DNA of 40,603 bases, from IMG/VR virus record IMGVR_UViG_3300035703_000183, positions 1 to 40,603 of that record. The stretch is one strand, 5' to 3'. A program made the position numbers and the translations under genes. Positions 6,702 through 38,069 of this stretch are shown here, one piece after another. Under the pieces are notes generated by a model. The model ran no database searches. It saw nothing but the letters and a program-made list of their open reading frames with translations, and was not told the origin of the DNA. The first letter of the stretch is position 1, and each line of letters opens with the position of its first letter. Origin of the DNA: a virus.

Positions 6702-6728
6702 AGTGTAAACATTGCCTGCTTCCGATTC

Positions 6729-8180
6729 GTGGCACAACACGACTACGTCATCGCCAACGGCACTGGTGCTGCCGTCCGCTCTGACCTGAACAACGGCCTC
6801 GCCGCAATCGTCAGCCAAAACAGCGGCACGACAGAGCCCACCACCACCTACGCCTACATGCGCTGGGCCGATACCACGGCTGGCGTCATGAAGATGCGTA
6901 ACGGCGCCAATAATGCCTGGATCACCCTTTACCAACTCGACGGCGAGTGGAGCACCATCGCCTTTGAGAACGGCAGCGCTTCCGCTCCATCCATCTACTT
7001 CAAGGACAGCGGCACCGATACCGGCATCTACAGCCCTGGCACCGATCAGGTCGCCATCAGCACGGGCGGAACCGGAAGACTGTTTGTTGACTCCAATGGT
7101 CGGGTAGGTCTGGGGACTAGTAGTCCTGGCGCAAGATTTGATGTTGTCAGCGCAGATAATACGGCAGCAACAACAATTGTCTCCGTAGCGGCTAATAATC
7201 AAACAAGCGCTATTCAGCTTGGTTATAACAGAATTACGCAAGTCAATTCAACACCGGCAAGTGCGTATTTGCAGCTTGGTGTTAGCAATAACACAACTGC
7301 AGTTCACATTGACGGAACAGGCAAGGTAGGGATTGGCACTACTTCGGCCACCGAGTTACTTTCCGTCAACGGCAATCTTTGGCTCGGCAATGGCGGCGGG
7401 TCTGGCGGATCTGAGATGCTCCGCATTTGGAATGATAATGGTGTCGAGAGGATTCACGGCAGCGGCAATCCTTCTGCCGTTGCGTTTGGCATGGGAGGAC
7501 ACACCAGTGTCTCTGAAGCTTTCAGAATTGATACATCACGCAGGCTCTTAGTTGGCACGACTACTGATTCCATAGGCACAGCAGGCACTGTTCTGTATGG
7601 AGCAACAGGAGCTTCAATAACCAGATCCGGCGGTGTACTATGGGCTTTGAATCGGTTAACAAATGATGGCAACTTAATTGAATTTTACCAAGACGGTACA
7701 GTTGAAGGAGCTATTTCTGTATCTGGAAGTACCGTCACCTACGGCGGCGGTCACCTTGCCCGCTGGTCCCAACTCCCCAACGACGACGATCCATCTGGTT
7801 TGCTGAAGGGCACCGTCATGTCCAACTTAAACGAGATGTGCGAATGGGGCGAAGAAGATAACGAACAGCTCAACAAAACCAAGGTAAGCGACGTTGAAGG
7901 CGACCCTAACGTAGCTGGCGTATTTGTCTCTACATCGTTCGATGAGGTTGGTCCACAGGATTTCTTCGTCGCAATGACCGGCGACATGATCATCCGCATT
8001 GCCGAAGGAGTCACGGTGCAGCGGGGCGACCTGCTGATGTCCGCTGGTGATGGCACCGCCAAACCGCAAGACGACGACATTGTGCGCAGCAAGACTATCG
8101 CCAAGGTGACCAGCACTCACGTCACCTGTACTTATGACGATGGCAGCTACTGCGTGCCCTGCGTGCTGATGGCTTGCTAG
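6729..8180 (+). CDS. Tail fibre protein
   Basis: 483 aa with a GTG start. The N-terminus AQHDYVIANGTGAAVRSDLNNGLAAI is typical of phage fibre N-terminal domains. It has Gly/Ser/Thr-rich beta-type repeats and sits immediately after J. Confidence 0.75.
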   Translation: MAQHDYVIANGTGAAVRSDLNNGLAAIVSQNSGTTEPTTTYAYMRWADTTAGVMKMRNGANNAWITLYQLDGEWSTIAFENGSASAPSIYFKDSGTDTGIYSPGTDQVAISTGGTGRLFVDSNGRVGLGTSSPGARFDVVSADNTAATTIVSVAANNQTSAIQLGYNRITQVNSTPASAYLQLGVSNNTTAVHIDGTGKVGIGTTSATELLSVNGNLWLGNGGGSGGSEMLRIWNDNGVERIHGSGNPSAVAFGMGGHTSVSEAFRIDTSRRLLVGTTTDSIGTAGTVLYGATGASITRSGGVLWALNRLTNDGNLIEFYQDGTVEGAISVSGSTVTYGGGHLARWSQLPNDDDPSGLLKGTVMSNLNEMCEWGEEDNEQLNKTKVSDVEGDPNVAGVFVSTSFDEVGPQDFFVAMTGDMIIRIAEGVTVQRGDLLMSAGDGTAKPQDDDIVRSKTIAKVTSTHVTCTYDDGSYCVPCVLMAC

Positions 8181-11051: not shown

Positions 11052-12167
11052 ATGACCAGCACCATTCGTCTACTCGACCTAGCTCGGTTCTACCGATCGC
11101 TTCCCCACCAAATGGCGGCTTTAGCCGAGCTGGAGGAAGCGATCAACAAAGCCGACCCCAAGCTACTCAACCGCACCCAACCGTGGTTCAAAACCTGGAG
11201 CCAGTCCGGCAAGCAACCACCAATCGAAAACAACTGGGACGGCATTGTGATGGCCGGCCGGATTGCCGGCGCCAAATACCCAGAACTGGTTGCCGCCCAA
11301 TGGGCCCTCGAATCTAGCTGGGGCAAACTTGTAACAGGCCGCAACAACTTTTTCGGCCTAAAAGGCGATGGAACCACCAGCACCACGCAAGAATTTATAA
11401 ACGGCCAGTGGATCACAATCCGCGACTCATTCCTGCAATTCCCAGACATCCAAACCGCCGTCTGCTATTTAGTTGATCGCTGGTATAAAGATTACAAAAC
11501 CTACAAAGGCTGCAACAACGCCACCAGCATCGAAGACGCCGCCCACTGGCTACAAAAAGAAGGCTACGCTACCGACCCAGATTACGGAAACAAGCTGATA
11601 AAGGTAATTAACACCCAAGCAGAAAAAACCGTAAAAACCAACGAATCTATCCTCAAAGTCCCCTACGAATACCAGCTCGACAACAAAAGCGGCACAGGTT
11701 ACCGCGAGTGCTTCAGCTCCAGCTGTGCAATGGTTGCCCGCTACTGGAAAAAAATCGGCAACGACGACGCCTACAACCTAATCCGCCGCAAATACGGGGA
11801 TAGTACAAATGTACACGCCCAAATCGCCGCTTTGAAAGAGCTGGGACTCCGCGCCACGTTCGAGCAAGAAGGCACCGCCTCCGACCTGGAAGCCGAAATC
11901 CGCATGGGCTATCCCACCCCCGTGGGCTGGCTCCATCGCGGACCAGTCAACAAACCCACTGGTTCAGGCCACTGGAGCGTAGTGATCGGCTTCACCCCGA
12001 CCCACTTCCTGCACAACGACCCAAATGGCGATGCCGACTTGGTGAATGGTGGCTATATAAGCAACAAAGGAGGCGCCGGCGTGGCATACTCCCGAAAAAA
12101 CTGGCTTCCTCGCTGGCTCGTTGACGGTCCCGACAGCGGCTGGTATCTGAAAATCCGCCCGATGTGA
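11052..12167 (+). CDS. Endolysin: N-acetylglucosaminidase (FlgJ/glucosaminidase-type) domain plus C39-like cysteine peptidase domain
   Basis: AAQWALESSWGK...NNFFGLKG is the glucosaminidase signature. The C-terminal part YRECFSSSCAMVARYW...GSGHWSVVIGF shows the Cys...His pattern of C39-like peptidases. Confidence 0.8.
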   Translation: MTSTIRLLDLARFYRSLPHQMAALAELEEAINKADPKLLNRTQPWFKTWSQSGKQPPIENNWDGIVMAGRIAGAKYPELVAAQWALESSWGKLVTGRNNFFGLKGDGTTSTTQEFINGQWITIRDSFLQFPDIQTAVCYLVDRWYKDYKTYKGCNNATSIEDAAHWLQKEGYATDPDYGNKLIKVINTQAEKTVKTNESILKVPYEYQLDNKSGTGYRECFSSSCAMVARYWKKIGNDDAYNLIRRKYGDSTNVHAQIAALKELGLRATFEQEGTASDLEAEIRMGYPTPVGWLHRGPVNKPTGSGHWSVVIGFTPTHFLHNDPNGDADLVNGGYISNKGGAGVAYSRKNWLPRWLVDGPDSGWYLKIRPM

Positions 12168-13607: not shown

Positions 13608-13761
13608 CTTCCTTAGTGAGTCTGACCATCCGCAAACCCGGCCACAACTCCCGGATGGTGTGATGCGCATGGGTCATGCTGTCGGCCATAATCGTGGCCT
13701 TCCGGAGAAGCCCACCAGGAGTCCGCAACAACGCCACATAATTACAAGGTGCGTACTTCAT
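13597..13761 (-). CDS. Hypothetical protein (54 aa)
   Basis: Hand translation gives MKYAPCNYVALLRTPGGLLRKATIMADSMTHAHHTIRELWPGLRMVRLTKEGDW. ATGA overlap with the DNA polymerase stop. Confidence 0.45.
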   Translation of the reverse strand: MKYAPCNYVALLRTPGGLLRKATIMADSMTHAHHTIRELWPGLRMVRLTKEGDW

Positions 13762-15587
13762 TTTGCCTCCGCCCAAGTCATACCGATATTGGCATCTGCA
13801 AGCGGCGGCACATCATCCAACCACTCAGCTTCGGCCTCTTCCATCGTTGCCTTCAACTGATGCGCCCAAATATCGGCATGTTCTTCACGTACCAGCAAGA
13901 TAATTTCGTCGTGCACGACGCCAGCTAGGCGCACAACTTCCTCCCCGTCTGCTTGGAGCAGCGGCCACAACTTACCGAGCGTGCGCTTAAGCACCGCCGC
14001 ACCAGCCCCTTGGATCGGAGTGTTGCAGCGAATCGTGAGCGAATTGTGATCGCCGTAAAGAAGCCTCCGCAACCCGGAGTGACGAATCTTGATCGCGGCA
14101 TTTCCTTTAGCCGCATTAGCAGCTGCAGCATTTTCACGCTGCCATTTGCTGATCCCTTTATAAGCAGCGTGGAACTTTTTCCGCACGTTTTCCGCTTCAG
14201 TAATATCCATTTGTATGCCCATGCCAGCTGCATAGTTTCTGAGTCCTTTTGCACCGCTTCCATACAACAATCCGAAGTTGGCTGATTTACTGACTTGGCG
14301 CTGATCTTTTGTGACTTCATCTTCTGAAACGCCATAAATCTGCATTGCTGTCAGTGTGTGCAAGTCCGTCCCAGCCTGGAACGCTTGGATCATCAGCTCA
14401 TCCTGGGCTTCGGCTGCCGCCAGCCTCAACTCCATCTGCGCGTAATCCGCCACTACCAGTCTCCATCCATCTGGCGCCTTGACGCACTCCCTAAACCTTG
14501 AATCTCTTGGAATTTGCTGCAGGTTGGGACTCATGCAACTCATGCGCCCTGTGTCAGCCCCCAACTGGAGGTAACTAGCCTTGATGTAGCCACTAGCACC
14601 CAGGTGCTTCAAGAGCGATTCCACCATCTGGCGCCGCTTCTCAATCCGCTTCCAGGCCAGGTAATCCGCAACCACAGGATGATCAGCCACGTACTCACGC
14701 AACACCAGCTTGCTGGCACTGGGCTTCCCGTCTGCCGTCACTGGTGCATTACCAAGTAATGCAGTAAAGACATCCAGCAACTGCTTGGGGCTGTTCAGGT
14801 TGAAACCTGCCTCAACCCGATCGCCACCACGTGCTGTTCCAGTGGCTTTGGCGTTGGTGTTTAGACGCCCATCAGCAAACCTCGGCAGTTTCTTGTCCTC
14901 CGGCAATGCCTGATCCAAAGCAACCAGAAACTCCTCACCTCGCGTCCGATGCTGAAGCGTCAGCTCACGCTGGAGCGTTTCTAATCCGTTGCGATCAAAC
15001 GGCAGGCCGGTTCGCCAAAGCTGCGCCATCGCCGGCAACGCCCGACACTCCAAAAACCACGCCCGATGCAGATTCGCCTCTGCCATCCGCTGGTTAATCG
15101 GCCCATCCATCTGGATCAACAGCTGCACGTCCTTCGCCGCGTATTCCAGCTGTCCTTGGGTCAAATCGCCCGACCAGTCACTCTTCTGCTCTTCCTTAGA
15201 GATCTCCTCCTTGAGATAACGTTTTACAACAGTCTGCAGACCGTGCTTTACGTTCGGCTGTCCATTGGTAAGGATCCGACTGGCCAGCATGGTGCACAAG
15301 ACCTCCCCATTGGGATAGATCTCGTGCTCCTGCAGCCAACCCAAGTCGAACACCGCATTGTGCGCCAGCCAGTAACGCTTCTGCGCAAAGAACTCCTCGA
15401 TGTCCACCCACTGGTGATCCTCCAGCTCCCAGCAGTCAATGACCACCGGATCCCGATCCAGCGCGGCTAACTGCAATAACCGCAACCCGCCGAATGTCGG
15501 CTGGAGCCCAGTCGTCTCACAGTCAAACGCCACAGTCGTGGCATTAGCGAGCGACCGAAGGTGCTCGATCCCTTGTAAAAAACGCAT
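13758..15587 (-). CDS. Family A DNA polymerase with 3'-5' exonuclease domain
   Basis: AFDCETTGL is Exo I, DYAQMELRLAA is motif A, KSANFGLLYG is motif B, VVHDEI is motif C. 609 aa. Confidence 0.93.
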   Translation of the reverse strand: MRFLQGIEHLRSLANATTVAFDCETTGLQPTFGGLRLLQLAALDRDPVVIDCWELEDHQWVDIEEFFAQKRYWLAHNAVFDLGWLQEHEIYPNGEVLCTMLASRILTNGQPNVKHGLQTVVKRYLKEEISKEEQKSDWSGDLTQGQLEYAAKDVQLLIQMDGPINQRMAEANLHRAWFLECRALPAMAQLWRTGLPFDRNGLETLQRELTLQHRTRGEEFLVALDQALPEDKKLPRFADGRLNTNAKATGTARGGDRVEAGFNLNSPKQLLDVFTALLGNAPVTADGKPSASKLVLREYVADHPVVADYLAWKRIEKRRQMVESLLKHLGASGYIKASYLQLGADTGRMSCMSPNLQQIPRDSRFRECVKAPDGWRLVVADYAQMELRLAAAEAQDELMIQAFQAGTDLHTLTAMQIYGVSEDEVTKDQRQVSKSANFGLLYGSGAKGLRNYAAGMGIQMDITEAENVRKKFHAAYKGISKWQRENAAAANAAKGNAAIKIRHSGLRRLLYGDHNSLTIRCNTPIQGAGAAVLKRTLGKLWPLLQADGEEVVRLAGVVHDEIILLVREEHADIWAHQLKATMEEAEAEWLDDVPPLADANIGMTWAEAK

Positions 15588-17403: not shown

Positions 17404-17918
17404 TGAAAATACCCCTTGGATTGTTGAACAGTGCCGTCGTTTTGGTAGTGCCCACGCGCTGCATAAGTAAGTTGCGGTACTTCTGCTAAGCGGTGAACTA
17501 CAAGCTGCCCAATGCGCATCCCATGCCAAATCGGAATCGGATGGAACCGCCTGATGTTGCTCAGCTCCAGTGTCAAGATCCCGGAAAACCCGCTGTCTGC
17601 AAATCCGGCCAAGCTGTGCTCAATCCCTTCCCTGGCACGGGAAGACTTGAGCATGAACTGCACCGCGCAGTCATCAGGCACCGTGATGCGCTCCAGTGTT
17701 GCCGCAAGCAAAAACTCACCCGGCGCCATGAAGTACGGCGACTCCTGACTGGTGTCCCCGATGCTGACCTGCTGGAACTCAGTCGCAAGCTGAGTCTCAA
17801 ACAAGATCGTCGGCCCCAGTCGTACATCCAGCGAACAGGGATTTACCAGTGCTGGGTCGTACTGATCGACAAGGCCCTGTTTGCACAGGGCCGCAATTTG
17901 CGAATCACACAAAAGCAT
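17400..17918 (-). CDS. dcd: dCTP deaminase / dUTPase-superfamily enzyme
   Basis: MLLCDSQI, SLDVRLG, PGEFLLAATLERITVP, KSSRAREGI, DSGFSGILTLELSN and GMRIGQLV parallel the conserved blocks of E. coli Dcd. Confidence 0.85.
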   Translation of the reverse strand: MLLCDSQIAALCKQGLVDQYDPALVNPCSLDVRLGPTILFETQLATEFQQVSIGDTSQESPYFMAPGEFLLAATLERITVPDDCAVQFMLKSSRAREGIEHSLAGFADSGFSGILTLELSNIRRFHPIPIWHGMRIGQLVVHRLAEVPQLTYAARGHYQNDGTVQQSKGYFQ

Positions 17919-18334
17919 CAGCTATGAAGCGTGACAACGTTGGACACAGCCGGCTCGACATGTTTCCATGTCTTGCCGTACTTGATGCAGTTGATTGTGG
18001 TGGGATGCACCCCGTACCGCTTAGCCAGCTTGACTGCAGATAACTCCTTGGCGATCAAGATGCGCTTGATCTCCCGCACATCTGCCTCACGCAGCATCTC
18101 CCGCTTCTTGCGGCGAGACACACGAGTCTTAGGTTGAGACTGGGGCTGCTTGACGGTTTCCGGAGTTTTTTGCTCCAGTTCGAGGGTGACGGTCTGGGCG
18201 CAGCCGACGATCCGCGTCAGGTTCTGAATGATGTCAGACGCTGCCTGGATGTTGGTCAGCAGATCGTGGGTTTCTCTGTCAGAGAGAAGAGTGAGCATGA
18301 GAGTTGGTTGAACGTTGTGCAGTGTAGTACTCAA
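17918..18334 (-). CDS. HTH DNA-binding protein
   Basis: The C-terminal AVKLAKRYGVHPTTINCIKYGKTWKHV is a typical helix-turn-helix segment, preceded by a basic linker. Confidence 0.55.
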   Translation of the reverse strand: MSTTLHNVQPTLMLTLLSDRETHDLLTNIQAASDIIQNLTRIVGCAQTVTLELEQKTPETVKQPQSQPKTRVSRRKKREMLREADVREIKRILIAKELSAVKLAKRYGVHPTTINCIKYGKTWKHVEPAVSNVVTLHS

Positions 18335-18841: not shown

Positions 18842-19085
18842 GGCTCACCTCCTCAACACGATGGCCGGTCAACTGCTCCATCCACGTGTCCCAGCTCATC
18901 TTGAGCCATTGCTCCATGTCCTCCAGGTGTTCCAGCTGGTGCCTGTCGTAACTGGCGCTGAGACCGTACTTCTCGGTGTTTGCGATGCGTTCTTTGATGC
19001 TGGTGATGGCCCAGCGGGTTGCGAAGTAGTACTCGCTGAGCTTGCTGTTGTCCAGCTTGGTGTGCAGGCTGGTGTGGGTGTCCAT
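18834..19085 (-). CDS. Hypothetical protein
   Basis: 83-aa ORF preceded by agaggact SD-like sequence. Confidence 0.55.
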   Translation of the reverse strand: MDTHTSLHTKLDNSKLSEYYFATRWAITSIKERIANTEKYGLSASYDRHQLEHLEDMEQWLKMSWDTWMEQLTGHRVEEVSRG

Positions 19086-19090
19086 AGTCC

Positions 19091-19131
19091 TCTAATACAG
19101 AAACAGGGCAGGAAGCTCTCGCCCCCTGCCC
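19091..19131 (-). terminator. Possible intrinsic terminator (leftward)
   Basis: The stem is GGGCAGG (19106-19112) / CCTGCCC (19125-19131). On the minus strand it is followed by TGTTTCTGTATT. Confidence 0.4.
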
Positions 19132-19132
19132 A

Positions 19133-19146
19133 TAGTGTTACACACA
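19133..19146. promoter_or_regulatory. Conserved box TAGTGTTACACACA (copy 1)
   Basis: Identical 14-mer also at 23020-23033. Related TACAC boxes occur in other intergenic regions. Confidence 0.5.
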
Positions 19147-19181
19147 GCCAGCGGTGCCGGCAATCCCGTCAGTTGTAAAAC

Positions 19182-19577
19182 TTAACCCTCGGGTACGCCG
19201 AGGATGTGGGCCGGGTAGGTGGTCAGCACAGAGACGTCTGCCCCCTGGCGCAGGGCCTGCCCAACGACGTAGTGGAAGATTCGGGTGCTGTCGCCGCACT
19301 CGAAGATCTGGATCTCATCGACCTCGACAGGCTTGCCCTTCCTAAACCAGCTGGTACGCACGATGCTGTGGATCTCATCGGGCACGTTGCCGACGGTGTA
19401 ACAGAGCGTGGGCCGCCTAGGCGGCCTCGGCTCACGCTTGGACTTGTCTGCGACATCCACGGGGTCTCTCCAGAAGATCCAAGCGACCACCCGCAGGAGG
19501 CCCAAGAAAAAGTTAGGCGTTCGTAGCACGGGCAGTTCTCCGGTAACGGCAGGGTTTTGCGTACACCCGCTCGTCAA
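19182..19577 (-). CDS. Hypothetical protein
   Basis: 131-aa ORF with an N-terminal hydrophobic segment FFLGLLRVVAWIFW. Confidence 0.5.
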   Translation of the reverse strand: MTSGCTQNPAVTGELPVLRTPNFFLGLLRVVAWIFWRDPVDVADKSKREPRPPRRPTLCYTVGNVPDEIHSIVRTSWFRKGKPVEVDEIQIFECGDSTRIFHYVVGQALRQGADVSVLTTYPAHILGVPEG

Positions 19578-19607
19578 GACACGGGAATGACCCGCGTGTC
19601 TGTTGTA

Positions 19608-22046
19608 CTACGTCCAGCTGTCCGAGGCACTTCGCATCAGCTGTGCCATCTCCTCGGGAGTGCGTTGGCTCTCGCGCGTGAAGATAGACGTGTCCTGCTG
19701 TCCCAAACTCTGAGATCCACTGCCCTGCAACGGATCTACTGTTTTGAGTTGTCCCATTTTGTCCCGTTTTGTCCCAACCTGTCCTTTGGATGTCCCAGAG
19801 CCCGTCTGAAGCTCCGGTTTGGGACAACTTGGGACAACTTGGGACAAACTGGGACAACCCATTTCCTGAGATCCCTCTCCAGCACTGGATTCTTCTTCTT
19901 TGGGACAAGCTATACCTCCTCCCCCCACGCGCGCGAGTACTGCTGAGTAGCGCTTGCTGGAACGTTCTCCTTCAACCGAGACCAACCCCCGGTCGACCAA
20001 GCGCTGGAGCGACTTCGAGATTGCGCTGACGCTGCCCCCAAGGAGAGGGTCGGCGTTCAACTCAGTCCGAGTCATTGGCACGCCTTTGGTGCGCAGCCGC
20101 TGAAGCACCCGGTCGATGATCGAGGCAGGACTAGCCGAATCGACTCCTTCCAGAGCCGGCAGATCCTGGAGCGAGAACGTCAGGTCTTCCTGCTGGCGCA
20201 GGATCAGCTGCTTGCCCTCGTTCCCTTCCCGGCTCTTACCGATGGTTATGAGCCGTGCAGAAGCCCCTACACGCTCCAGCTCGGCCTTCTCCGGCCTACG
20301 GATACCCCAAGACTCATCCACGGCATCCTGGAGCGCCGAGGTGCCCCTGAAGTCGCCCGTTTTGGCTGCGTGGTGGATGAAGACGATCGTGGTTGCTGGG
20401 AAGCTCTCGCCGTTCTCGGCGCTGTACCAGTAAATGGGCTCGGCATATTCGGCCTTGTTCTGGTCGTAAGCGCAGCCCCTCATACAGGCCGTAACGGAGT
20501 CCCACACAACAAGGGAAGGCCGATGCTCTTCGATCTGCTGGATAAACCACGGATACCAGAGCATCGAAACCTTGTTCTGTACCACAACAGGGTCATCAGC
20601 TGTGAAATCCAGATCGGCAAACTGCTTGCGAATCCGCCGACTGTTTTGATCACCATTCAGCCAAAGCACCTTGCCCGGTTCAACTGGAACATCAGCCCCT
20701 CGCACAGAAAACGGGATTCCGCGTGCAATGTGCTTGGCAAGCGTCATGACAGCCATAGTTTTGCCGCAGCCTCCACGTCCGTGGATCAGCACTGTCCCCG
20801 GCTTAGGCAGTAGATCAGGAATGAGGTATTCGATTGGCGTGTCCTCCGTGGCAAAAATTTCCTGGAGAGTTCCTCCCTGTGATCCGCGCCTGTATTCCTG
20901 ATCCGCAATCAGAAGCCGCACAACCGCAGCGGCCTCCCTGTAACCAGCTTCCAGCGCAATTTCGTGGAGCTTGTGCTGCACTTCCGAAGGATTGGGCAAC
21001 CCCATGGCCGCCGTCGCCCGTTTGACGATTTCCTCGTGCGAAAGACCAGTGCTACGGAATCGCTGCACGCGATCTTGCTCAACACTGTCAACAACCTTGC
21101 GCAAATCCTCAGACAGCCACAGCCGCCCTGGCATCTGCTGATCAGCCATCCAGAACAGCGACCCAAGCGTCACCGGCCCTTTCTTGAAAGACTTCCAAAC
21201 CTCCTCGCAGGGGTTGGAGCTAGCCCACTCTTCGCTGTACTCAGGATCATCTGACGACCATGCCGCCCACAAGGTGAGGCCCAAGTCCGTAGGCAACTCC
21301 GAGTGGATCGCCATACCCACCTTGACCCAGTGGTCCCGACTACCGGCCCCCTGCCCTGGAATCACCCGCAATGCGGACTGAATAATCTCAGCCACCTCAG
21401 CCGGATCTCGATCTGAGAAATCAAGCGCCTTGCGGTTCTTGATGAACCCGCCGTCCTGTAGCTCTTTGCCGGCGGAATCACGCATCTCAGCCAGCAGCCA
21501 CGCTGGAGCCTCCGGGATGGCCTCCAGATCACCCTCAAAGCCGTACCGCCCAGCCGGAGCCTTCCCATCACTGGAGCCCGGATACGCCCCGTAGAGGAGC
21601 CCCTGACGGCCCCAGAGGACCTCATAGCCCTGCCCGGTATCGGACAACCCAAAACCCCTTACAACGCCCCACAGAGCCTCTGGGACGCGAAACAGGTACT
21701 TCGCCGCATTGGCCTTGGTGGAGGTAACGACTGGAGCACCGTCGAGCGAATCGCACCACTTGCTCTTCAATCTGGCGAGATTCCTGTCCACATCAAGGAT
21801 TACGAGGCCGTTGCTCCTCGCCCCAGTGAACACACCAACCGCCTGGAACACTTCCGGCTTGCGCTCGATCTGCAACGCGACATCCGCCGGATCCATGACG
21901 ACGTGATGCGACCGTTCCAGCGGCGTCTTGCCCTTGCTGATTTTCCCGGACTGGAGCAGCGCATCTTTCCGGTAAATGGGCGCATACGCCAACCCGACAG
22001 GCAACTGGCGCACAAATGCCAGAAGCTCTTGCGTCTCATGCGACAC
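19608..22046 (-). CDS. Bifunctional primase-polymerase / P-loop helicase with C-terminal winged-helix domain
   Basis: The N-terminal prim-pol motif is VGVFTGARSNGLVILDVD, followed by a PriCT-like DHWVKVGMAIHSE. Walker A is IHGRGGCGKT and Walker B is SLVVWDSV. The wHTH-like segment is ISKSLQRLVDRGLVSVEG. GTG start with AGGAG 9 nt upstream. Confidence 0.85.
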   Translation of the reverse strand: MSHETQELLAFVRQLPVGLAYAPIYRKDALLQSGKISKGKTPLERSHHVVMDPADVALQIERKPEVFQAVGVFTGARSNGLVILDVDRNLARLKSKWCDSLDGAPVVTSTKANAAKYLFRVPEALWGVVRGFGLSDTGQGYEVLWGRQGLLYGAYPGSSDGKAPAGRYGFEGDLEAIPEAPAWLLAEMRDSAGKELQDGGFIKNRKALDFSDRDPAEVAEIIQSALRVIPGQGAGSRDHWVKVGMAIHSELPTDLGLTLWAAWSSDDPEYSEEWASSNPCEEVWKSFKKGPVTLGSLFWMADQQMPGRLWLSEDLRKVVDSVEQDRVQRFRSTGLSHEEIVKRATAAMGLPNPSEVQHKLHEIALEAGYREAAAVVRLLIADQEYRRGSQGGTLQEIFATEDTPIEYLIPDLLPKPGTVLIHGRGGCGKTMAVMTLAKHIARGIPFSVRGADVPVEPGKVLWLNGDQNSRRIRKQFADLDFTADDPVVVQNKVSMLWYPWFIQQIEEHRPSLVVWDSVTACMRGCAYDQNKAEYAEPIYWYSAENGESFPATTIVFIHHAAKTGDFRGTSALQDAVDESWGIRRPEKAELERVGASARLITIGKSREGNEGKQLILRQQEDLTFSLQDLPALEGVDSASPASIIDRVLQRLRTKGVPMTRTELNADPLLGGSVSAISKSLQRLVDRGLVSVEGERSSKRYSAVLARVGGGGIACPKEEESSAGEGSQEMGCPSLSQVVPSCPKPELQTGSGTSKGQVGTKRDKMGQLKTVDPLQGSGSQSLGQQDTSIFTRESQRTPEEMAQLMRSASDSWT
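19748..19860. repeat. Inverted iteron-like array: 5x TTGTCCC-type boxes then 4x GGGACAA boxes, 10-bp phased
   Basis: GTCCC starts at 19751, 19761, 19771, 19781 (gtcct) and 19792. GGGAC starts at 19821, 19831, 19841 and 19851. The centre is near 19807. Confidence 0.8.
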
Positions 22047-22059
22047 GATGTTAGACTCC

Positions 22060-22065
22060 TACAGT
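22060..22065 (+). promoter_or_regulatory. -10-like hexamer TACAGT (rightward)
   Basis: It fits the TAnnnT pattern and lies in the divergent intergenic region 14 nt upstream of a strong hairpin terminator. Confidence 0.35.
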
Positions 22066-22079
22066 GAAAGTTTTGAGTG

Positions 22080-22111
22080 TGCCCCGAGGCCGGCAGCCTT
22101 GGGGCATTTTT
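22080..22111 (+). terminator. Strong intrinsic terminator-like hairpin in the leader of the rightward ssb-exo operon
   Basis: The 10-bp stem is TGCCCCGAGG / CCTTGGGGCA (one G-T pair), with a 7-nt loop followed by TTTTT (22107-22111). Confidence 0.6.
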
Positions 22112-22164
22112 CTATGGTAGCCATCCAGGCAACCCCGTGCTACTGTATGAGAGTTGCCATCCGG

Positions 22165-22202
22165 CGACCATCCAAACCGACCATCCAAACCGACCATTCA
22201 CC
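22165..22202 (+). repeat. Three tandem 13-bp repeats CGACCATCCAAAC x2 plus CGACCATTCACC abutting the start codon
   Basis: Read directly from the sequence. Two more CCATCC copies occur at about 22121 and 22157. Confidence 0.85.
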
Positions 22203-22784
22203 ATGGCATTTCTTTCCAAGACTGCTTCAGCCAACGTCAACAGCTCGGGCAGCGGCGGCGGCTACCTGCAACTTTCCAAACTCCCTGACGGCGGCTCAGT
22301 CCGCTTCGCACTGCTCTCGGACGAGCCCCTGGAGGGCTACGAAGTCTGGGGCCAATGCGCCGGCCAGTCCAAGCCCTTCCGCTTCGAGCAAGAGCCCACG
22401 CCCGAGGACGTCACGGTCGAGCTGGGCGACTTTGAAGCACGCGAAGGCCGTGGCGGCCCTGGCACCGTCGACCTGAAGTTCTTCATTGCAGTCCCGGTCT
22501 ACAACTACGAGTCCGGCAAAGTCCAAGTCCTGCAGATCACGCAGAAGTCCATCCTGAAGGAAATCGACCAGATCTCCCAGATGGAGGATTACGAGGATTT
22601 GCTTGCCTGGGACTTCACGATCAGCAAGAAGGGCTCGGGCCTTACGACGGAGTACACGGTCCGCCCTGTCCCGCGCAAGAAAGGCAGCCAAGAGCACATC
22701 GACGCCGCCTGGCTGGAGGCCAAGTCCGAAGGCTTCGACATTTCGAGGCTTTTGACAGGAGCCAACCCCTTCAAGGCTGTCTGA
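22203..22784 (+). CDS. Putative ssDNA-binding protein (OB-fold, DUF669-like)
   Basis: 193 aa from the internal ATG of track ORF 22077..22784. It has a pattern of N-terminal beta-rich region and acidic tail, and is adjacent to a nuclease. Assignment is by recollection of family features only. Confidence 0.45.
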   Translation: MAFLSKTASANVNSSGSGGGYLQLSKLPDGGSVRFALLSDEPLEGYEVWGQCAGQSKPFRFEQEPTPEDVTVELGDFEAREGRGGPGTVDLKFFIAVPVYNYESGKVQVLQITQKSILKEIDQISQMEDYEDLLAWDFTISKKGSGLTTEYTVRPVPRKKGSQEHIDAAWLEAKSEGFDISRLLTGANPFKAV

Positions 22785-27092: not shown

Positions 27093-28340
27093 ATGCCCGA
27101 ATCGCCAGCATTAACGCTCCGTTGGGCCCAAGGCGAGGTGTTTGGCAGCCGCAAACGCTTCCGTGTGCTGGTTGCCGGCCGCCGCTTCGGCAAAAGCTAC
27201 CTGTCATGTATCGAATTATTGCGTGGGGCGATCGAGCGGCCGGGCGAAACGTTCTTTTACGCGGCCCCTACATACCGAATGGCGAAGGACATCGCCTGGA
27301 AGGTGATGAAAAAACTCGTCCCCAAGGCCTGGATCAAGAGCAAGAACGAAACCGACCTGAAGATTGAGCTGGTAAACGGCAGCACGATCGAATTAAAGGG
27401 CACCGAAAACGCAATGGCGTTGCGCGGCCGCAGTTTGGCCGGCGTGGTGCTGGACGAAGCCGCCTTCATGGACGCCGAGGTCTGGTTCGAAGTGATCCGC
27501 CCGGCCTTAGCAGACAAACAAGGCTGGGCTTTATTCATCTCCACCCCCGACGGCACCGCCAGCTGGTTCTATGAACTATGGCAATACGCCGAGAGCGGCG
27601 ACAACGACTGGAGCCGCTGGCAATTCACGACAATCGAAGGCGACAACGTCCCACCGGAAGAAATCGAAGCCGCCCGAGGCCAACTCGACGCCCGCACCTT
27701 CCGCCAAGAATTTGAAGCCAGCTTCGAGAATCTTTCCGGCCTTGTCGCCGTCAGCTTCAGCGACGAAAACATCTCCACGCAAGCTATCGACATCCCAACA
27801 CTTCCCCTAATGGTTGGCGTCGACTTCAACAACGACCCGATGACTGGCATCGTCTCCGTACGCCACAACGACAACCTATACGTCATCGACGAAATCATCC
27901 TTACCGGCGGCGCCACCACCTGGGATTTCTGCGACGAACTTATCCGCCGCTACGGCGTCGAGCGCCGCATCATCACATGCCCAGATCCAACTGGAGCAGC
28001 TCGCAAGACAAGTGGCGTTGGCTACACAGACCACAACATCCTGCGTAAATCTGGTTTTACCGTCTCTAGCCCTCGCTCTCCGTGGAAAATCCGCGACAAA
28101 ATTACATGCGCTAATACAGCGCTTCTCGATGCAGCCGGAAATCGTCGCACGTTAATCCACCCTAAGTGCCGCGAACTTATCAAATCCCTCCGCACCCTCA
28201 CCTACACCCCCAACACTGGCCTCCCCAACAAAAACCTAGGCGTCGACCACGCCTTCGACGCCTTCGGTTATCTCTGCCTTCAAGTATTCAACCTTGCGAA
28301 TATCGGCAAAATCGGCACTACAGACTACCGCCTGTACTAA
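27093..28340 (+). CDS. terL: Terminase large subunit
   Basis: Walker A is VAGRRFGKS and Walker B is GVVLDEAAF. The C-terminal nuclease-type segments are VGVDFNNDP and DHAFDAFGY. 415 aa. Confidence 0.9.
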   Translation: MPESPALTLRWAQGEVFGSRKRFRVLVAGRRFGKSYLSCIELLRGAIERPGETFFYAAPTYRMAKDIAWKVMKKLVPKAWIKSKNETDLKIELVNGSTIELKGTENAMALRGRSLAGVVLDEAAFMDAEVWFEVIRPALADKQGWALFISTPDGTASWFYELWQYAESGDNDWSRWQFTTIEGDNVPPEEIEAARGQLDARTFRQEFEASFENLSGLVAVSFSDENISTQAIDIPTLPLMVGVDFNNDPMTGIVSVRHNDNLYVIDEIILTGGATTWDFCDELIRRYGVERRIITCPDPTGAARKTSGVGYTDHNILRKSGFTVSSPRSPWKIRDKITCANTALLDAAGNRRTLIHPKCRELIKSLRTLTYTPNTGLPNKNLGVDHAFDAFGYLCLQVFNLANIGKIGTTDYRLY

Positions 28341-29074: not shown

Positions 29075-29247
29075 TGGCTAAACCCGGCCTCTACGCCAAC
29101 ATCAACGCCAAGCGCAAGCGCATCGCTGCCGGAAGCAACGAAAAAATGCGTAAGCCTGGCTCAAAAGGCGCCCCAACCGACGCTGCCTTCAAAGCAGCCG
29201 CCAAAACCGCCAAACCGGCTAAACCCACCAAAAAACGGAGCAAGTAA
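29074..29247 (+). CDS. Small basic protein (57 aa)
   Basis: Hand translation gives MAKPGLYANINAKRKRIAAGSNEKMRKPGSKGAPTDAAFKAAAKTAKPAKPTKKRSK. TAATG junction with the preceding ORF. Confidence 0.5.
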   Translation: MAKPGLYANINAKRKRIAAGSNEKMRKPGSKGAPTDAAFKAAAKTAKPAKPTKKRSK

Positions 29248-30063: not shown

Positions 30064-31614
30064 ATGACCTACGCAGTTCCCGGCCAAATCCGCACCCATC
30101 TTGTCAGTTCGACCTTTGAAGGCCCGACTGACTCACCCTTCACGCGCACCCGCGCCGTGTTGGACATGATGCGCGGCTGGGAAATCATGAAAGCGGTCAG
30201 CCTAGGTACCGAATACCTGCGCGAAAACAGCGAAACCTTCCTCCCCCTGGAACCCCGCGAGGACTACACGGCCTACTTGGCCCGCGTCAACCGCGCCGTC
30301 TTCTCACCCTTCACGCAACGACTGGTCCGCGCCGCTGCCGGCCTGATCCTACGCAAACCGATTGTCCTCGAAGGCGACCCCTACTGGAGCGAAATCTTCG
30401 CCAAGGACGTCGACGGTTGCGGCTCGGACCTGGACGAGTATGCCCGCCGCCTACTGATCTGCGCCCTTACCTACGGCCACTGCCACACACTGGTCGATTT
30501 CCCAGCCCCAACTGGCGCCCGCAGCCTGGCGGAAGAACGCGCCCTAAACCGCCGCCCGTACTGGATCGAGGTCGACCCGCAGAATGTGTACGGCTGGCGC
30601 TTGGACCGCGAGGTCAACTACGGCAAGCTCATCCAGGTCCGAATCGCCGAAAAAGCCATCGTCCCCGACGGCCGCTTCGGCGAAAAAGTGTACGACCAGA
30701 TCCGCGTCATCGAGCCAGGCCGCTACGAGATCTACCGCCAACTGGAGAGCCGCAAGGACATGTACGGCCAAATGCCGTACCCCAACTCGTTTGACGTAAC
30801 AGGCCCCACGGGCGGCAACTACGAGCTAGTTGAAACTGGCGCTTACAGTTTGGGCGAAATCCCCCTCGTAACCCTTTACTCGAACAAGACCGACACGCTG
30901 GTCAGCAAACCCCCACTACTGGACATCGCCTACCTAAACCTGGCGCATTTCCAACGCCAAGCCGACCTGATCCACAGCCTGCATGTCGCCAGCCAACCCA
31001 TGCTTGTCCTCGAAGGCTGGGACGACCAGACCAAGGACCTTGCCATTAGCGTTAATTATGCGTTGGCGATGCAGCCCGGCAACAAGGCTTATTACGTGGA
31101 GCCTGCGTCTAGCGCTTTCGAGGCCCAGTCAAACGAAATAAAAGAACTGCAGATGCAGATGGCGACGCTGGGCATCAGCACTCTGAGCCAGCAAAAGTTT
31201 GTCGCCGAATCTGCCGACGCCCGCCGCTTGGACCGCGTCGACACCAACTCGATGCTGTCGATGGTCTCGATGGATTTACAGCAAACGCTGCAAGGCGCCT
31301 TCAACCTGGCCGCCAACTACCTCCAGCTGGAGCCCCCCAAGGTCTACGTAAGCCGCGACTTCGACATCGACCGCCTGATCGGCCAAGACATTACCGCCCT
31401 GACGACACTGTTCACGCAGCAGGTAATCGACCGCGAAGAGTTCCGCGACATCCTGCGCCAAGGCGAAATCCTATCAGCTGGCGTCTCGATGGACGGCGAT
31501 AACGAAGCCACCGAGTCTGCAGAGGAAGAAGCCCGCGAAGAAGAGGAAGAAAATTCCTCCGACGGAATATCTGCCGACCAGATGGAGCGTCTAATTCAAG
31601 CAATGATGGGCTGA
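30064..31614 (+). CDS. Portal protein
   Basis: 516 aa, positioned between terL and the scaffold/capsid genes. The N-terminal pattern [20 protein letters not shown]...[13 protein letters not shown] resembles DUF4055-type portals. The C-terminus is acidic. Confidence 0.75.
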
Positions 31615-31618: not shown

Positions 31619-32509
31619 ATGGCCACCAAACAGGACTACCTGACGCTGGCCCAAGTCACCGCGCTCGTCAAACTCAGCAAAAAACTCAAAAATCTCACGA
31701 CGCTGCTATCCGGCGACGGTCCCCCAGACGACACGGGCAGTTCCGGCGACTGGTACATCGACCGCCGCACGAAACAGCTTTACGGCCCTAAGTCCAGCAA
31801 CGGCTGGCCTAGCGAGCCCGTTGCACTTGGCACAAAAGACACAGATGGCCGCCTCCGCACCACGCAACTAACAATCAGCGGCAACCAAGCAGAGGCCGCC
31901 AAGGGAGACGCAGGCCCTGCAGGACCAACAGGCGCTACTGGCCCTGCCGGCCCCACCGGACCCGCTGGCCCAACCGGCGCAACCGGCCCAACAGGTTCAA
32001 CTGGTGCAACCGGCCCTGCGGGACCTGCAGGTCCACAAGGCGACGCCGGACCAACCGGCCCAACTGGAGCAACAGGTCCTCAAGGCCCCCAGGGCGAACA
32101 AGGCCCAATTGGTCTGACCGGTCCGGCAGGTCCACAAGGCGAAACAGGCCCTGCCGGCCCCACGGGCCCACAAGGCGAGACAGGTCCCCAAGGTTTAACG
32201 GGCGCTACAGGTGCCACAGGCCCCGCCGGCCCTACTGGTGCTACAGGACCTGCCGGCAGCAACGCTACTGTGACCGCCGGCACCGGCATCGCAGTCAGCG
32301 ACGGCGTTGTTTCCCTGAACTCCAGCTTTCTTACAACAAACCAGTTCATCCAACTACCAACCGGCACAACCGCACAGCGCCCGAACACCCCAGCCACGGG
32401 CATGATCCGCTTCAACACCAGCGCTGGCGCCTTCGAGGGCTACACCGGCACCGCGTGGGTGAATTTGTCCCCGGCCAACATCGACGACGTTGGAGCAACG
32501 ATTACCTAA
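31619..32509 (+). CDS. Collagen-like (Gly-X-Y repeat) protein with globular C-terminal domain
   Basis: About 39 uninterrupted G-X-Y triplets (roughly 31904-32257). The C-terminal [11 protein letters not shown]...GMIRFNT...FEGYTGTAW is a motif seen in phage fibre proteins. Confidence 0.85.
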
Positions 32510-38018: not shown

Positions 38019-38034
38019 CCCCGGCGGCTTTTTT
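38007..38034 (+). terminator. Weak terminator-like hairpin plus T6
   Basis: CGCCGCC-actaaccc-CGGCGGC (short stem, about 6 bp) followed by TTTTTT. Confidence 0.4.
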
Positions 38035-38038
38035 CTCG

Positions 38039-38048
38039 CGTACACTGG
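38039..38048 (+). promoter_or_regulatory. CGTACACTGG box (-10-like TACACT), 23 nt upstream of GTG 38070
   Basis: Third copy of the late box. Confidence 0.4.
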
Positions 38049-38069
38049 TAAAACAGGATTCAGGCGCCG

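What the first reader, a model, noticed from the sequence alone, without database searches (positions are those of the whole stretch)
19748..19860. Helically phased inverted array of 5+4 GGGACAA boxes inside the primase/helicase coding sequence: candidate replication origin
The plus strand reads gTTGTCCCa ttTTGTCCCg ttTTGTCCCa acCTGTCCT ttggaTGTCCCa, then a 24-bp spacer, then ttTGGGACAAc tTGGGACAAc tTGGGACAAac TGGGACAAcc. Box starts are spaced 10, 10, 10 and 11 bp on the left arm and 10, 10 and 10 bp on the right arm, so all boxes sit on one face of the helix. The two arms are inverted relative to each other. The array lies in the last roughly 100 codons of the prim-pol/helicase ORF, just downstream of a winged-helix-like segment (LQRLVDRGLVSVEG). 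The encoded peptide there is low-complexity (GCPSLSQVVPSCPK...GTSKGQVGTKRDKMGQLK), which suggests the constraint acts on the DNA rather than the protein. This is the arrangement known from lambda ori, where iterons sit inside the initiator gene O. It would imply that the replicase binds its own 3' coding region.
Basis: partly seen in the sequence, partly recalled or inferred. Interest (0 to 1): 0.75.

Follow-up and report, generated by a model that had tools for sequence, protein, structure and literature searches.

The report
Replication origin inside primase-helicase gene
A cluster of eleven to twelve short DNA boxes inside the end of a phage primase-helicase gene is most likely the phage's replication origin, read by that protein's own DNA-binding domain; the design is known from lambda and staphylococcal islands, but here it comes as a natural series of at least 14 matched box/protein specificities.

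Summary
Window 19690-19915 holds 11 boxes (T)TGGGACAA plus a half box, phased at 10-11 bp, with two outer boxes 51 bp away. They form two inverted sets inside the last 100 codons of an 812-aa primase-helicase.

- **DNA, not protein, is constrained.** Third-codon positions vary far less in the boxes than elsewhere (entropy 0.33 vs 0.90). The encoded residues 706-794 are predicted disordered.
- **The array is family-wide.** All 104 distinct relatives keep 5-14 GGACA-core boxes at this spot.
- **Box type tracks the protein.** The 4 bases before GGACA switch in concert between lineages (at least 14 box types). They track the recognition helix and wing of the protein's own winged-helix domain (AUC 0.97). 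Neighbouring genes track them poorly (0.47-0.76).
- **Coding status does not matter.** In remote relatives (32-42% identity) the array straddles the stop codon or lies in non-coding DNA just downstream, next to or around an AT-rich stretch.

Best reading: an iteron-type origin bound by its own initiator. It works like SaPI Rep/ori, and sits inside the initiator gene as in lambda O/ori. Binding and origin activity are inferred, not shown. No AT-rich unwinding element is present in the window. I class it as a new variant of a known kind.

The parts
19608..22046 (-). Primase-helicase gene, 812 aa. N-terminal AEP-type primase with PriCT_2, RSF1010-RepA-like helicase, winged helix, disordered linker, C-terminal helix.
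   Evidence: ORF. Pfam PriCT_2 (222-301) and AAA_25 (399-565). Invariant D85-V86-D87 in the A1 alignment; its reading as the AEP DxD motif is my interpretation. Foldseek top hit RSF1010 RepA 1nlf, E 7e-12. AF2 model.
19932..20129 (-). Coding segment for the winged-helix DNA-binding domain (residues 640-705).
   Evidence: AF2 topology H-(b)-H-H-b-b, pLDDT 73-90. Foldseek matches Zur/ArsR/MarR/TFE/AspA winged helices, TM 0.6-0.69. Weak TrmB Pfam hit.
19995..20036 (-). Recognition helix (residues 671-684, GSVSAISKSLQRLV). Its exposed positions change with box type.
   Evidence: AUC 0.973 for separating same-box from different-box pairs. None of 1643 different-box pairs share an identical helix.
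19690..19915 (.). Whole origin-like element: 11 boxes plus a half box, mirror-symmetric spacing 51, 10, 10, 10, 31, 11, 10, 10, 10, 51.
19901..19908 (+). Outer box TGGGACAA, 51 bp from the four-box arm.
   Evidence: Conserved as TGTCC in at least 90% of 104 relatives.
19878..19889 (.). Near-palindrome TCCAGCACTGGA between the outer box and the arm. Conserved family-wide as CCAGT...GGA. Function unknown.
19820..19857 (+). Arm of four TGGGACAA boxes, 10-bp period.
19798..19819 (.). 22-bp spacer between the arms, 64% G+C. Variable, with a 12-nt indel among close relatives.
19749..19797 (-). Arm of five boxes on the minus strand: TGGGACAA, CGGGACAA, TGGGACAA, AAGGACAG (degenerate), TGGGACAT.
19713..19737 (.). 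Local inverted repeat AGATCC..GGATCT between the arm and the outer box.
   Evidence: helix 8: one pair with compensatory change.
19690..19705 (-). Outer box TGGGACAG (19698-19705) plus half box GTGTCC (19690-19695).
19665..19931 (-). Coding segment for residues 706-794, predicted disordered. It contains the whole array.
   Evidence: pLDDT 26-31. First and second codon positions of the non-box positions of 19690-19915 vary more than in the rest of the gene (0.49 vs 0.28).
19614..19658 (-). Coding segment for the conserved C-terminal helix (residues 797-811).
   Evidence: pLDDT 84. Conserved motif PEEMAQLM was used as a search pattern. Absent from tail-less remote relatives P0132, P0137 and P0141.

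Best explanation
Window 19690-19915 is the phage's iteron-type origin of replication, and the initiator is the primase-helicase whose own reading frame runs through it.

**Proposed mechanism**
- The winged-helix domain (residues 640-705) reads the boxes. The invariant helix residues would contact the invariant GGACA core. The variable helix positions and the wing would contact the 4 variable bases on the 5' side.
- The 10-11-bp phasing puts successive protomers on one face of the DNA.
- The two inverted sets nucleate RepA-type helicase rings in opposite orientations.
- The DNA is then opened, the N-terminal primase domain makes the first primers, and the phage family-A polymerase (13758-15587) extends them.
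- The peptide encoded by the array is a passenger: a disordered linker of about 90 aa between the winged helix and a C-terminal helix.

**Shown here**
- The boxes, their phasing and their enrichment.
- The DNA-level constraint.
- Concerted box-type switching between lineages.
- Covariation of box type with the helix and wing.
- That the array does not depend on being coding.
- That only one further box copy occurs elsewhere in the genome.

**Inferred**
- Physical binding.
- Origin activity.
- The helicase loading geometry.
For: - **Clustering.** Seven of 8 exact TGGGACAA copies lie within 160 bp, against 1.14 expected in the window. Family-wide the last 370 nt of the gene hold 8.5 GGACA cores on average, against 0.31 expected from the rest of the same genes. 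69% of same-orientation neighbour spacings are 10-11 bp.
- **DNA-level selection.** Third-codon entropy is 0.33 in boxes and 0.90 in the rest of the gene (p = 5.6e-8). First and second positions of the non-box positions in 19690-19915 are more variable than the gene average. Boxes rotate through all three frames. The encoded residues 706-794 have pLDDT 26-31.
- **Concerted evolution.** At least 14 box types share the form NNNN-GGACA and are homogeneous within each genome, including the two outer boxes 51 bp away.
- **Link to the protein's own winged helix.** Same-box and different-box pairs are separated with AUC 0.973 by the recognition helix and 0.969 by the wing. The C-terminal tail, equally close to the array, gives 0.81. 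Helicase and primase give 0.75. Neighbouring genes give 0.47-0.76. Each of 29 helix variants maps to one box class.
- **A partial recognition rule holds in two remote lineages.** The pairing K677 with GG-GGACA is also seen in P0122, and R677 with TG-GGACA in P0128.
- **The array does not depend on being coding.**
  - L169 (42% identity) has the same TGGGACAA boxes straddling the stop codon, followed by AT-rich DNA.
  - L167 and L168 (35% and 32% identity, no C-terminal tail) have inverted box sets around an AT-rich centre in non-coding DNA just after the stop.
- **Uniqueness.** Box 8- or 9-mers are absent from 5-8 kb of flanking DNA in 16 loci. No other iteron-like array exists in the 40.5-kb genome.
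- **Fit to characterised systems.**
  - SaPI Rep/PriRep5: a C-terminal winged helix reads 6-12 short iterons, in two opposed sets, directly after rep (PMC9371898).
  - Lambda and SPP1: the origin is embedded in the initiator gene.
Against: - No AT-rich unwinding element lies in or beside the array in this genome. The highest value is 55% A+T in 40-nt windows, and the central spacer is 64% G+C.
- GC skew gives no origin signal.
- There are no binding, replication or coverage data.
- The segment would also fold into a very stable hairpin (-114 kcal/mol, z = -10.4), so a structural role for single-stranded DNA or RNA cannot be excluded.
- The recognition code is not one-to-one at long range. P0128 reads the same TGGGACAA box with a different helix sequence.
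- The winged helix and the array are adjacent, so part of the covariation reflects linkage. In the mosaic genes L036-L041 the helicase, winged helix and array travel together.
Confidence: 0.68

Rival explanations
1. The winged helix does bind the boxes, but the array is a regulatory operator or transcriptional roadblock rather than an origin. It would set primase-helicase levels or expression of the downstream replication genes.
For: - The array sits between the primase-helicase body and the downstream genes of the same leftward gene cluster.
- In L169 the boxes lie in the intergenic DNA next to an AT-rich, promoter-like stretch directly upstream of the next gene.
Against: - Operators rarely need 8-14 helically phased sites in two inverted sets.
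- No sigma-70-like promoter was found in 19000-22400.
- The binding protein is a helicase-primase, and the design matches characterised origins.
- The conserved promoter region upstream of the gene (22047-22202) carries no boxes and does not change with box type.
Confidence: 0.12
2. The selected feature is a nucleic-acid structure. The candidates are a long hairpin in the mRNA (an RNase III site, stability or pausing element) or a hairpin or cruciform in single-stranded or supercoiled DNA used as a priming or loading signal. On this view the boxes are only the stem segments.
For: - RNA fold of 19690-19915(-) is -114 kcal/mol, z = -10.4.
- Strong folds occur in most lineages.
- Within the window clade 97% of cells are paired, and cells with compensatory change number 15 against 7.2 in shuffles (3 of 500 shuffles reach it).
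Against: - A stem does not need identical boxes repeated within one arm.
- Orientation patterns differ between lineages: the window clade has '<<<<< >>>>>>>', the 60%-identity clade has '<><<>><>', and the L032 clade is mostly '>'.
- Fold z-scores drop to -2 in L019 and -3 to -4 in L032 and L042, although 9-11 boxes persist there.
- The number of pairs with compensatory change (4) equals the shuffle mean (4.1), and 40 of 58 pairs never vary.
- There is no Rfam family; the best hit scores 24.5 bits against a threshold of 74.
- A hairpin does not explain the covariation with the winged helix.
Confidence: 0.08
3. The array is a centromere-like partition site or a packaging (pac) recognition site bound by a winged-helix protein.
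For: - Phased short repeats in two sets resemble plasmid centromeres such as parC (my own knowledge).
- Foldseek hits include the pNOB8 centromere-binding protein AspA.
Against: - Pfam/PHROG scans of 30 ORFs gave no ParA/ParM-type partition protein and no integrase hit, and no integrase-sized ORF is seen in 8.2-13.8 kb or 37.4-40.6 kb.
- The large terminase gene is 7 kb away at 27093-28340.
- The array always follows the primase-helicase winged helix, including in remote relatives.
Confidence: 0.03
4. The array is a chance or slippage-generated repeat, or a repeat selected at the protein level.
For: None beyond the existence of low-complexity peptide.
Against: - 0 of 100 shuffles reach the observed count.
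- The array is conserved from 32% to 99% protein identity.
- The 10-bp period is not a multiple of 3.
- The peptide is predicted disordered and variable.
- The array is partly or wholly non-coding in L167, L168 and L169.
Confidence: 0.01

Closest known systems
SaPI Rep / PriRep5 with the SaPI ori (staphylococcal pathogenicity islands; PMC9371898)
   Same: - A self-loading initiator-helicase, fused to a primase in PriRep5.
- A C-terminal winged-helix domain reads 6-12 short iterons.
- The iterons follow the rep reading frame and form two sets pointing in opposite directions.
- Specificity differs between elements.
   Different: - The SaPI iterons are non-coding and flank an AT-rich centre. Here the reading frame runs through them and the centre is G+C-rich.
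- The SaPI helicase is AAA+/MCM-like with 3'-5' polarity. Here it is a RecA-fold RSF1010-RepA-like helicase.
- No sequence homology to SaPI Rep was detected.
- The remote relatives L167 and L168 do show the SaPI layout.
Lambda O protein and ori-lambda (PMC3985674)
   Same: - Initiator-binding repeats sit inside the initiator's own gene, downstream of the segment that encodes the DNA-binding domain.
- Transcription passes through the origin.
   Different: - Lambda has four 19-bp iterons bound by O dimers plus an AT-rich region. O only recruits the host DnaB through P.
- Here there are 11-12 boxes of 8-9 bp in inverted sets, and the initiator itself carries the helicase and the primase.
- No O-family domain was found.
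SPP1 G38P and oriL (PMC5737612)
   Same: The origin (AB boxes) is embedded in the gene of the protein that binds it.
   Different: - G38P is a replisome organiser without helicase or primase.
- oriL has an adjacent AT-rich unwinding element.
- A separate loader (G39P) and helicase (G40P) are needed.
P4 alpha protein with ori/crr, and N15 RepA (from my own knowledge; not checked in the library)
   Same: One polypeptide combines primase, helicase and a C-terminal origin-binding domain that reads short repeats. For N15 the origin is reported inside the 3' part of repA.
   Different: - Those helicases are superfamily 3.
- P4 needs a second site (crr) 4.5 kb away.
- No detectable homology: no match to any record in the plasmid collection (PLSDB), and only remote matches (24-26% identity over the helicase region) in the phage collection.
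RSF1010/IncQ replicon (RepA helicase, RepB' primase, RepC iteron-binding protein, oriV)
   Same: - The helicase domain is the closest structural relative (1nlf, 1g8y).
- The three activities (primase, helicase, iteron binding) are the same set.
   Different: - In RSF1010 the three activities are separate proteins.
- Its iterons are 20-bp direct repeats in non-coding oriV.
- Priming uses the ssiA and ssiB hairpins.

Membership tests
Iteron-type origin embedded in the initiator gene (lambda O/ori, SPP1 gene 38/oriL) | Several repeated, helically phased candidate initiator-binding sites | tested here: met
   11-12 boxes, spacing 10-11 bp.
Iteron-type origin embedded in the initiator gene (lambda O/ori, SPP1 gene 38/oriL) | Repeats lie inside the reading frame of the protein that binds them | tested here: met
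   The position inside ORF 19608-22046 was shown directly. Binding by that protein is supported only by covariation.
Iteron-type origin embedded in the initiator gene (lambda O/ori, SPP1 gene 38/oriL) | Adjacent AT-rich DNA unwinding element | tested here: not met
   The highest A+T is 55% in 40-nt windows around the array, and the spacer is 64% G+C. AT-rich DNA is present next to the array in the remote relatives L167, L168 and L169.
Iteron-type origin embedded in the initiator gene (lambda O/ori, SPP1 gene 38/oriL) | Initiator homologous to lambda O or SPP1 G38P | tested here: not met
   Pfam finds only PriCT_2, AAA_25 and a weak TrmB hit.
Iteron-type origin embedded in the initiator gene (lambda O/ori, SPP1 gene 38/oriL) | Demonstrated origin activity and specific initiator binding | not testable with these tools
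   Needs EMSA or footprinting, replication assays or marker-frequency data.
Self-loading primase-helicase initiators with a C-terminal winged helix (SaPI Rep/PriRep5 type) | Primase and helicase in one initiator polypeptide | tested here: met
   PriCT_2 and invariant D85-V86-D87 in the N-terminal part (reading it as the AEP DxD motif is my interpretation). AAA_25 and RepA-like fold.
Self-loading primase-helicase initiators with a C-terminal winged helix (SaPI Rep/PriRep5 type) | C-terminal winged-helix domain | tested here: met
   AF2 models. Foldseek matches winged-helix proteins with TM 0.6-0.69.
Self-loading primase-helicase initiators with a C-terminal winged helix (SaPI Rep/PriRep5 type) | 6-12 short iterons after the DNA-binding domain coding segment, in two sets of opposite orientation | tested here: met
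   Five plus four inner boxes and two outer boxes, arms inverted.
Self-loading primase-helicase initiators with a C-terminal winged helix (SaPI Rep/PriRep5 type) | Iterons non-coding, immediately downstream of rep, around an AT-rich centre | tested here: not met
   In the window the iterons are inside the ORF and the centre is G+C-rich. The feature is met in the remote relatives L167 and L168.
Self-loading primase-helicase initiators with a C-terminal winged helix (SaPI Rep/PriRep5 type) | AAA+ (MCM/SF3-like) helicase core | tested here: not met
   The best sequence and fold matches are RSF1010 RepA, DnaB and RadA, all RecA-fold.
RSF1010/IncQ replicon | RepA-type hexameric helicase | tested here: met
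   1g8y E = 0.0099 by sequence profile. 1nlf E = 7e-12, TM 0.64 by fold.
RSF1010/IncQ replicon | Separate RepC iteron-binding protein, 20-bp direct iterons, ssiA/ssiB priming hairpins | tested here: not met
   Here there is a single polypeptide and 8-9-bp boxes in inverted sets. Hairpin potential exists, but its role is unknown.
Described structured RNA family (Rfam 15) | Match reaching a family's gathering score | tested here: not met
   Only sub-threshold miRNA-like hairpin hits, 24.5 bits against 74.

The most novel reading that the evidence does not exclude
The family is a natural library of at least 14 orthogonal initiator/origin pairs built on one scaffold: an invariant GGACA core with 4 variable bases, and an invariant helix framework with variable helix positions and wing. 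That would amount to a readable winged-helix recognition code.

Placing the origin directly after the segment that encodes the DNA-binding domain may also serve cis-preferential loading. The nascent winged helix would leave the ribosome while the ribosome is translating the array. In coupled transcription-translation it would fold next to its own target. Each genome would then load its own initiator during mixed infections.

The reading frame appears to have been extended across an ancestral non-coding origin. Intermediates seem to survive: L169 straddles the stop codon, and L167 and L168 are fully non-coding.
Probability: 0.25. Interest if true: 0.78.

Novelty: new variant of a known kind. 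Interest (0 to 1): 0.58.

Why it matters
- It assigns a replication origin and an initiator to a large, uncultivated family of siphoviruses with roughly 40-47-kb genomes. The family has more than 250 viral contigs and more than 1100 protein relatives, and no cultured or plasmid relative was found.
- It shows a protein segment whose sequence is dictated by the DNA sites that the same protein reads. Evolutionary intermediates range from a non-coding to a fully coding origin.
- The matched series of box types and helix/wing variants is a ready-made data set for working out how a winged helix discriminates 4 flanking bases, and for building orthogonal replicons.
- The underlying principle (iterons in or next to the initiator gene, read by its own domain) is already established, so this extends rather than overturns current knowledge.

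Tried and rejected
- **Nucleotide and protein similarity.** Nucleotide search against cultured phages found nothing. Protein search found only remote helicase-region hits at 24-26% identity. The plasmid collection gave nothing. Reference genomes gave one hit, a 44.8-kb contig in a metagenome-assembled genome labelled Gammaproteobacteria, which does not identify the host.
- **GC skew** falls across most of the genome (near-flat at 16-20 kb, slight rise at 24-27 kb) and gives no origin signal.
- **Rival origin sites.**
  - The 13-bp tandem repeat at 22165-22197 is a strain-specific duplication in a conserved promoter region, and L002 has one copy fewer.
  - The low-GC block at 38-40.3 kb has no iteron-like repeats.
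  - The 9-bp repeat at 29198-29233 encodes a K/P-rich protein tail.
- **RNA explanations.** Rfam gave nothing. Covariation analysis of the long hairpin was weak, with 4 compensatory pairs, equal to the shuffle mean.
The weak-HTH protein at 17918-18334 shows no association with box type (AUC 0.475), and the other neighbours give 0.47-0.76.
- **A simple one-residue/one-base code.** The idea that T681 pairs with T at position -1 failed once more box types were seen.
- **Remote relatives in the viral contig collection.** Searches with P0132 and P0126 found no usable loci. Their DNA came from exact-protein look-ups instead.
- **L165.** The contig ends 183 nt after the stop codon, so its downstream repeats are inconclusive.
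Full report
**1. The observation**

- TGTCCC starts at 19750, 19760, 19770 and 19791, with a degenerate TGTCCT at 19780.
- TGGGACAA starts at 19820, 19830, 19840 and 19850 after a 22-bp spacer.
- Exact TGGGACAA occurs 8 times in the 40,603-nt window against 1.14 expected, and no shuffle reaches 8. Seven of the 8 copies lie in 19749-19908.
- Tandem Repeats Finder reports both arms with period 10.
- Two more boxes were missed: 19901-19908 (+) and 19698-19705 (-). Each lies 51 bp outside its arm. A half box lies at 19690-19695.
- Core-to-core spacings are 51, 10, 10, 10, 31, 11, 10, 10, 10, 51. The whole 226-bp segment is therefore a helically phased, nearly mirror-symmetric imperfect palindrome.

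**2. Context**

The window is a complete circular assembly: its first 127 nt are repeated at the end.

The genome is a siphovirus-type genome.
- Lambda-like tail genes lie at 628-8180 and an endolysin at 11052-12167.
- The large terminase is at 27093-28340, the portal at 30064-31614 and the major head protein at 33529-34620.
- No integrase or partition-protein match was obtained among the 30 ORFs scanned.
- A leftward replication module runs from a family-A DNA polymerase (13758-15587) to the gene that holds the array.

The gene holding the array is ORF 19608-22046(-), 812 aa.
- It has PriCT_2 and an AEP-type N-terminal part, plus an AAA_25 helicase domain.
- The helicase's closest solved relative is the RSF1010 RepA helicase.
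- A winged helix covers residues 640-705, with the recognition helix at 673-685.
- Residues 706-794 have pLDDT 26-31, and a confident C-terminal helix spans 797-811.
- The boxes encode residues 713-783, entirely within the predicted disordered stretch.

No cultured phage or plasmid is related at a useful level.

**3. The constraint is on the DNA**

More than 1100 protein relatives and 160 viral loci were available, giving 104 distinct genes.
- In the 18 sequences that share the TTGGGACAA box (74-99% protein identity), third-codon entropy is 0.33 inside boxes and 0.90 in the rest of the gene (Mann-Whitney p = 5.6e-8).
- First and second codon positions of the non-box positions in 19690-19915 vary more than in the rest of the gene (0.49 vs 0.28).
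- The 10-bp period moves successive boxes through all three frames, so there is no peptide repeat.
- Family-wide, the last 370 nt hold 5-14 GGACA cores (mean 8.5), against 0.31 expected from the rest of the same genes. 69% of same-orientation neighbour spacings are 10 or 11 bp.

**4. The boxes evolve in concert**

The core GGACA is invariant. It is one of the few stretches in the region conserved in at least 90% of sequences.

The four bases on its 5' side differ between lineages and are homogeneous within a genome, including the outer boxes. Types seen include TTG-G, AAAC, AACC, AAGG, AA(n)A, GGTG, AGTG, AATG, AG(C/T)T, GGGG, CCG, CACT and ATCG.

Box 8- or 9-mers do not occur elsewhere in 5-8 kb of flanking DNA in 16 loci. 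In the window GGGACA is if anything under-represented outside the array, with 11 copies against about 20 expected.

Concerted change of dispersed copies is what recognition by a co-evolving trans-acting factor predicts.

**5. Which factor reads the boxes**

I tested 69 sequences whose N-terminal 600 residues are at least 72% identical to L063. Each protein segment was scored for how well its pairwise distance separates same-box from different-box pairs.

| Segment or gene | AUC |
|---|---|
| Recognition helix (671-684) | 0.973 |
| Wing (685-705) | 0.969 |
| Rest of the winged helix (640-670) | 0.858 |
| C-terminal tail (786-812), as close to the array on the other side | 0.811 |
| Residues 600-639 | 0.765 |
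| Helicase (391-599) | 0.744 |
| Primase (1-390) | 0.749 |
| orf131, immediately downstream | 0.62-0.70 |
| Other neighbouring genes | 0.47-0.76 |
| Weak-HTH protein at 17918-18334 | 0.475 |

- None of 1643 different-box pairs share an identical helix.
- Each of 29 helix variants goes with one box class, apart from AGCT/AGTT, which also mix within genomes.
- The framework residues of the helix (V673, I676, K678, R682, L683) are invariant, matching the invariant core.
- Partial rules emerge: K677 with GG-GGACA, R677 with TG-GGACA, and E/D682 with C-GGACA. The first two recur in the remote lineages P0122 and P0128.
- The code is not strictly one-to-one, because P0128 reads TGGGACAA with a different helix.
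- Linkage contributes. In the mosaic genes L036-L041 the helicase, winged helix and array travel together while the primase part is exchanged.

**6. The array does not depend on being coding**

A search of 1.84 billion representative proteins gave full-length relatives down to about 30% identity. Their DNA was recovered by exact-protein look-ups.

| Locus | Protein, identity to window | Array |
|---|---|---|
| L170 | P0122, 47% | Eight GGGGGGACAA boxes inside the ORF |
| L171 | P0133, 38% | Seven TGTCAAAACC boxes, both orientations, inside the ORF |
| L169 | P0128, 42%, short tail | The window's own box TGGGACAA. Two copies before and four after the stop codon, then an AT-rich stretch before the next gene |
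| L167 | P0137, 35%, no tail | AAGGTGGAAAAC boxes in both orientations around ATTTTTATAAAAA, in non-coding DNA after the stop. All 4 GGTGGAA of the locus are here (0.34 expected) |
| L168 | P0141, 32%, no tail | Five CTGA(G/T)ACA boxes around an AT-rich centre downstream of the stop (0.19 expected; 0 of 200 shuffles) |

An array of boxes in both orientations thus follows the winged-helix coding segment in these lineages whether or not it is translated. L165 (P0132) was inconclusive because its contig ends 183 nt after the stop. The non-coding layout is exactly that of SaPI origins. The simplest history is that the reading frame was extended across an originally non-coding origin and acquired the C-terminal helix.

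**7. Mechanism proposed (inference)**

- Winged-helix domains of several protomers bind the phased boxes on one face of each arm.
- The opposed arms assemble RepA-type rings in opposite orientations.
- The duplex is opened, the primase domain primes and the phage polymerase extends.
- Transcription and translation of the gene pass through the origin, as in lambda, where this activates the origin.

The weak point is the missing AT-rich unwinding element in this genome, although remote relatives have one.

**8. Rivals**

- **Nucleic-acid structure.**
  - In favour: the segment would fold into a very stable hairpin (z = -10.4).
  - Against: orientation patterns differ between lineages.
  - Against: fold z-scores fall to -2 to -4 in L019, L032 and L042 while the boxes persist.
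  - Against: repeated identical boxes within an arm are not needed for a stem.
  - Against: covariation is weak, and Rfam has no match.
  - A role for a hairpin or cruciform after unwinding is not excluded.
- **Operator or roadblock.** This remains possible if binding is real but regulatory. The number and phasing of sites, and the nature of the binding protein, argue for an origin.
- **Packaging or partition site.** This is unlikely.
- **Chance or protein-level repeats.** These are excluded.

**9. Comparison with known systems**

- It works most like SaPI Rep/PriRep5 with its ori.
- It shares with lambda O/ori and SPP1 G38P/oriL the embedding of the origin in the initiator gene.
- It is not a member of any of these families. 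The helicase is RecA-fold, RSF1010-RepA-like. The iterons are coding. There is no AT-rich centre. No homology to O, G38P or SaPI Rep was detected.

I class it as a new variant of a known kind. The most valuable by-product is the natural series of matched box and helix/wing specificities, together with the evolutionary intermediates between non-coding and coding origins.

Noticed in passing
window 1-127 and 40477-40603: The first 127 nt are repeated exactly at the end. The window is therefore a circularly assembled complete genome of 40,476 bp, and its ends are arbitrary.
   Followed up: partly
window 22165-22197: A perfect 13-nt tandem repeat (CGACCATCCAAAC x2.5) lies in the divergent promoter region between the primase-helicase gene and the SSB-like gene. 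The 99%-identical relative L002 has one copy fewer, so it is a strain-specific duplication, not an iteron array.
   Followed up: yes
window 22047-22202 (hairpin 22079-22107): The intergenic region upstream of the primase-helicase start is conserved in all lineages. It has a promoter-like TTGAC..N17..TA.AAA and a G+C-rich hairpin whose sequence differs between lineages but remains a hairpin. It may be a 5'-terminal stem-loop of the replication-gene mRNA, or a terminator for the opposite strand.
   Followed up: partly
L036-L041 (gene at 3001-5448 in the loci): These primase-helicase genes are mosaics. Residues 1-330 are only 38-75% identical to the window protein, whereas residues 390-690 are 90-97% identical. 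The helicase, winged helix and array are exchanged as one module, separately from the primase part.
   Followed up: partly
window 19713-19737: A local inverted repeat AGATCC..GGATCT lies between the five-box arm and the outer box. In relatives it keeps pairing partly through paired synonymous changes (CCG..AAC to CCA..AAT in L014) and G-T/G-U pairs. Its role is unknown.
   Followed up: partly
window 19878-19889: The near-palindrome TCCAGCACTGGA lies between the outer box and the four-box arm. The motif CCAGT...GGA is conserved in 70% or more of the 104 relatives (GGA in at least 90%), independently of box type. It could be a site for a second, possibly host, factor.
   Followed up: no
whole window: GGGACA occurs 21 times, 10 of them in the array. 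The remaining 11 compare with about 20 expected, a mild depletion elsewhere. The single outside copy of TGGGACAA, at 218-225, sits beside an unrelated 7-bp inverted repeat.
   Followed up: partly
L169 3850-3915; L167 2724-2737; L168 2390-2425: Remote relatives with a partly or wholly non-coding array have an AT-rich stretch inside or directly after it. The window's coding array lacks such a stretch. Where this genome is unwound is unexplained.
   Followed up: partly
window 31913-32257: Collagen-like GXY-type repeats (periods 9, 18, 27 and 36) lie in ORF 31619-32509, between the portal and the major head protein genes.
   Followed up: no
window 38000-40300: A low-GC block (43-50% against 57% for the genome) carries small minus-strand ORFs. 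The two ORFs tested from this block (38078-38335 and 39881-40381) have no Pfam match. It has no iteron-like repeats and is probably an acquired accessory region.
   Followed up: partly
window 19614-19658 (residues 797-811): A confidently predicted, conserved C-terminal helix ends in a tryptophan near the C-terminus. It is separated from the winged helix by the array-encoded linker and is absent from tail-less remote relatives. It may be a docking element for the polymerase or SSB.
   Followed up: no
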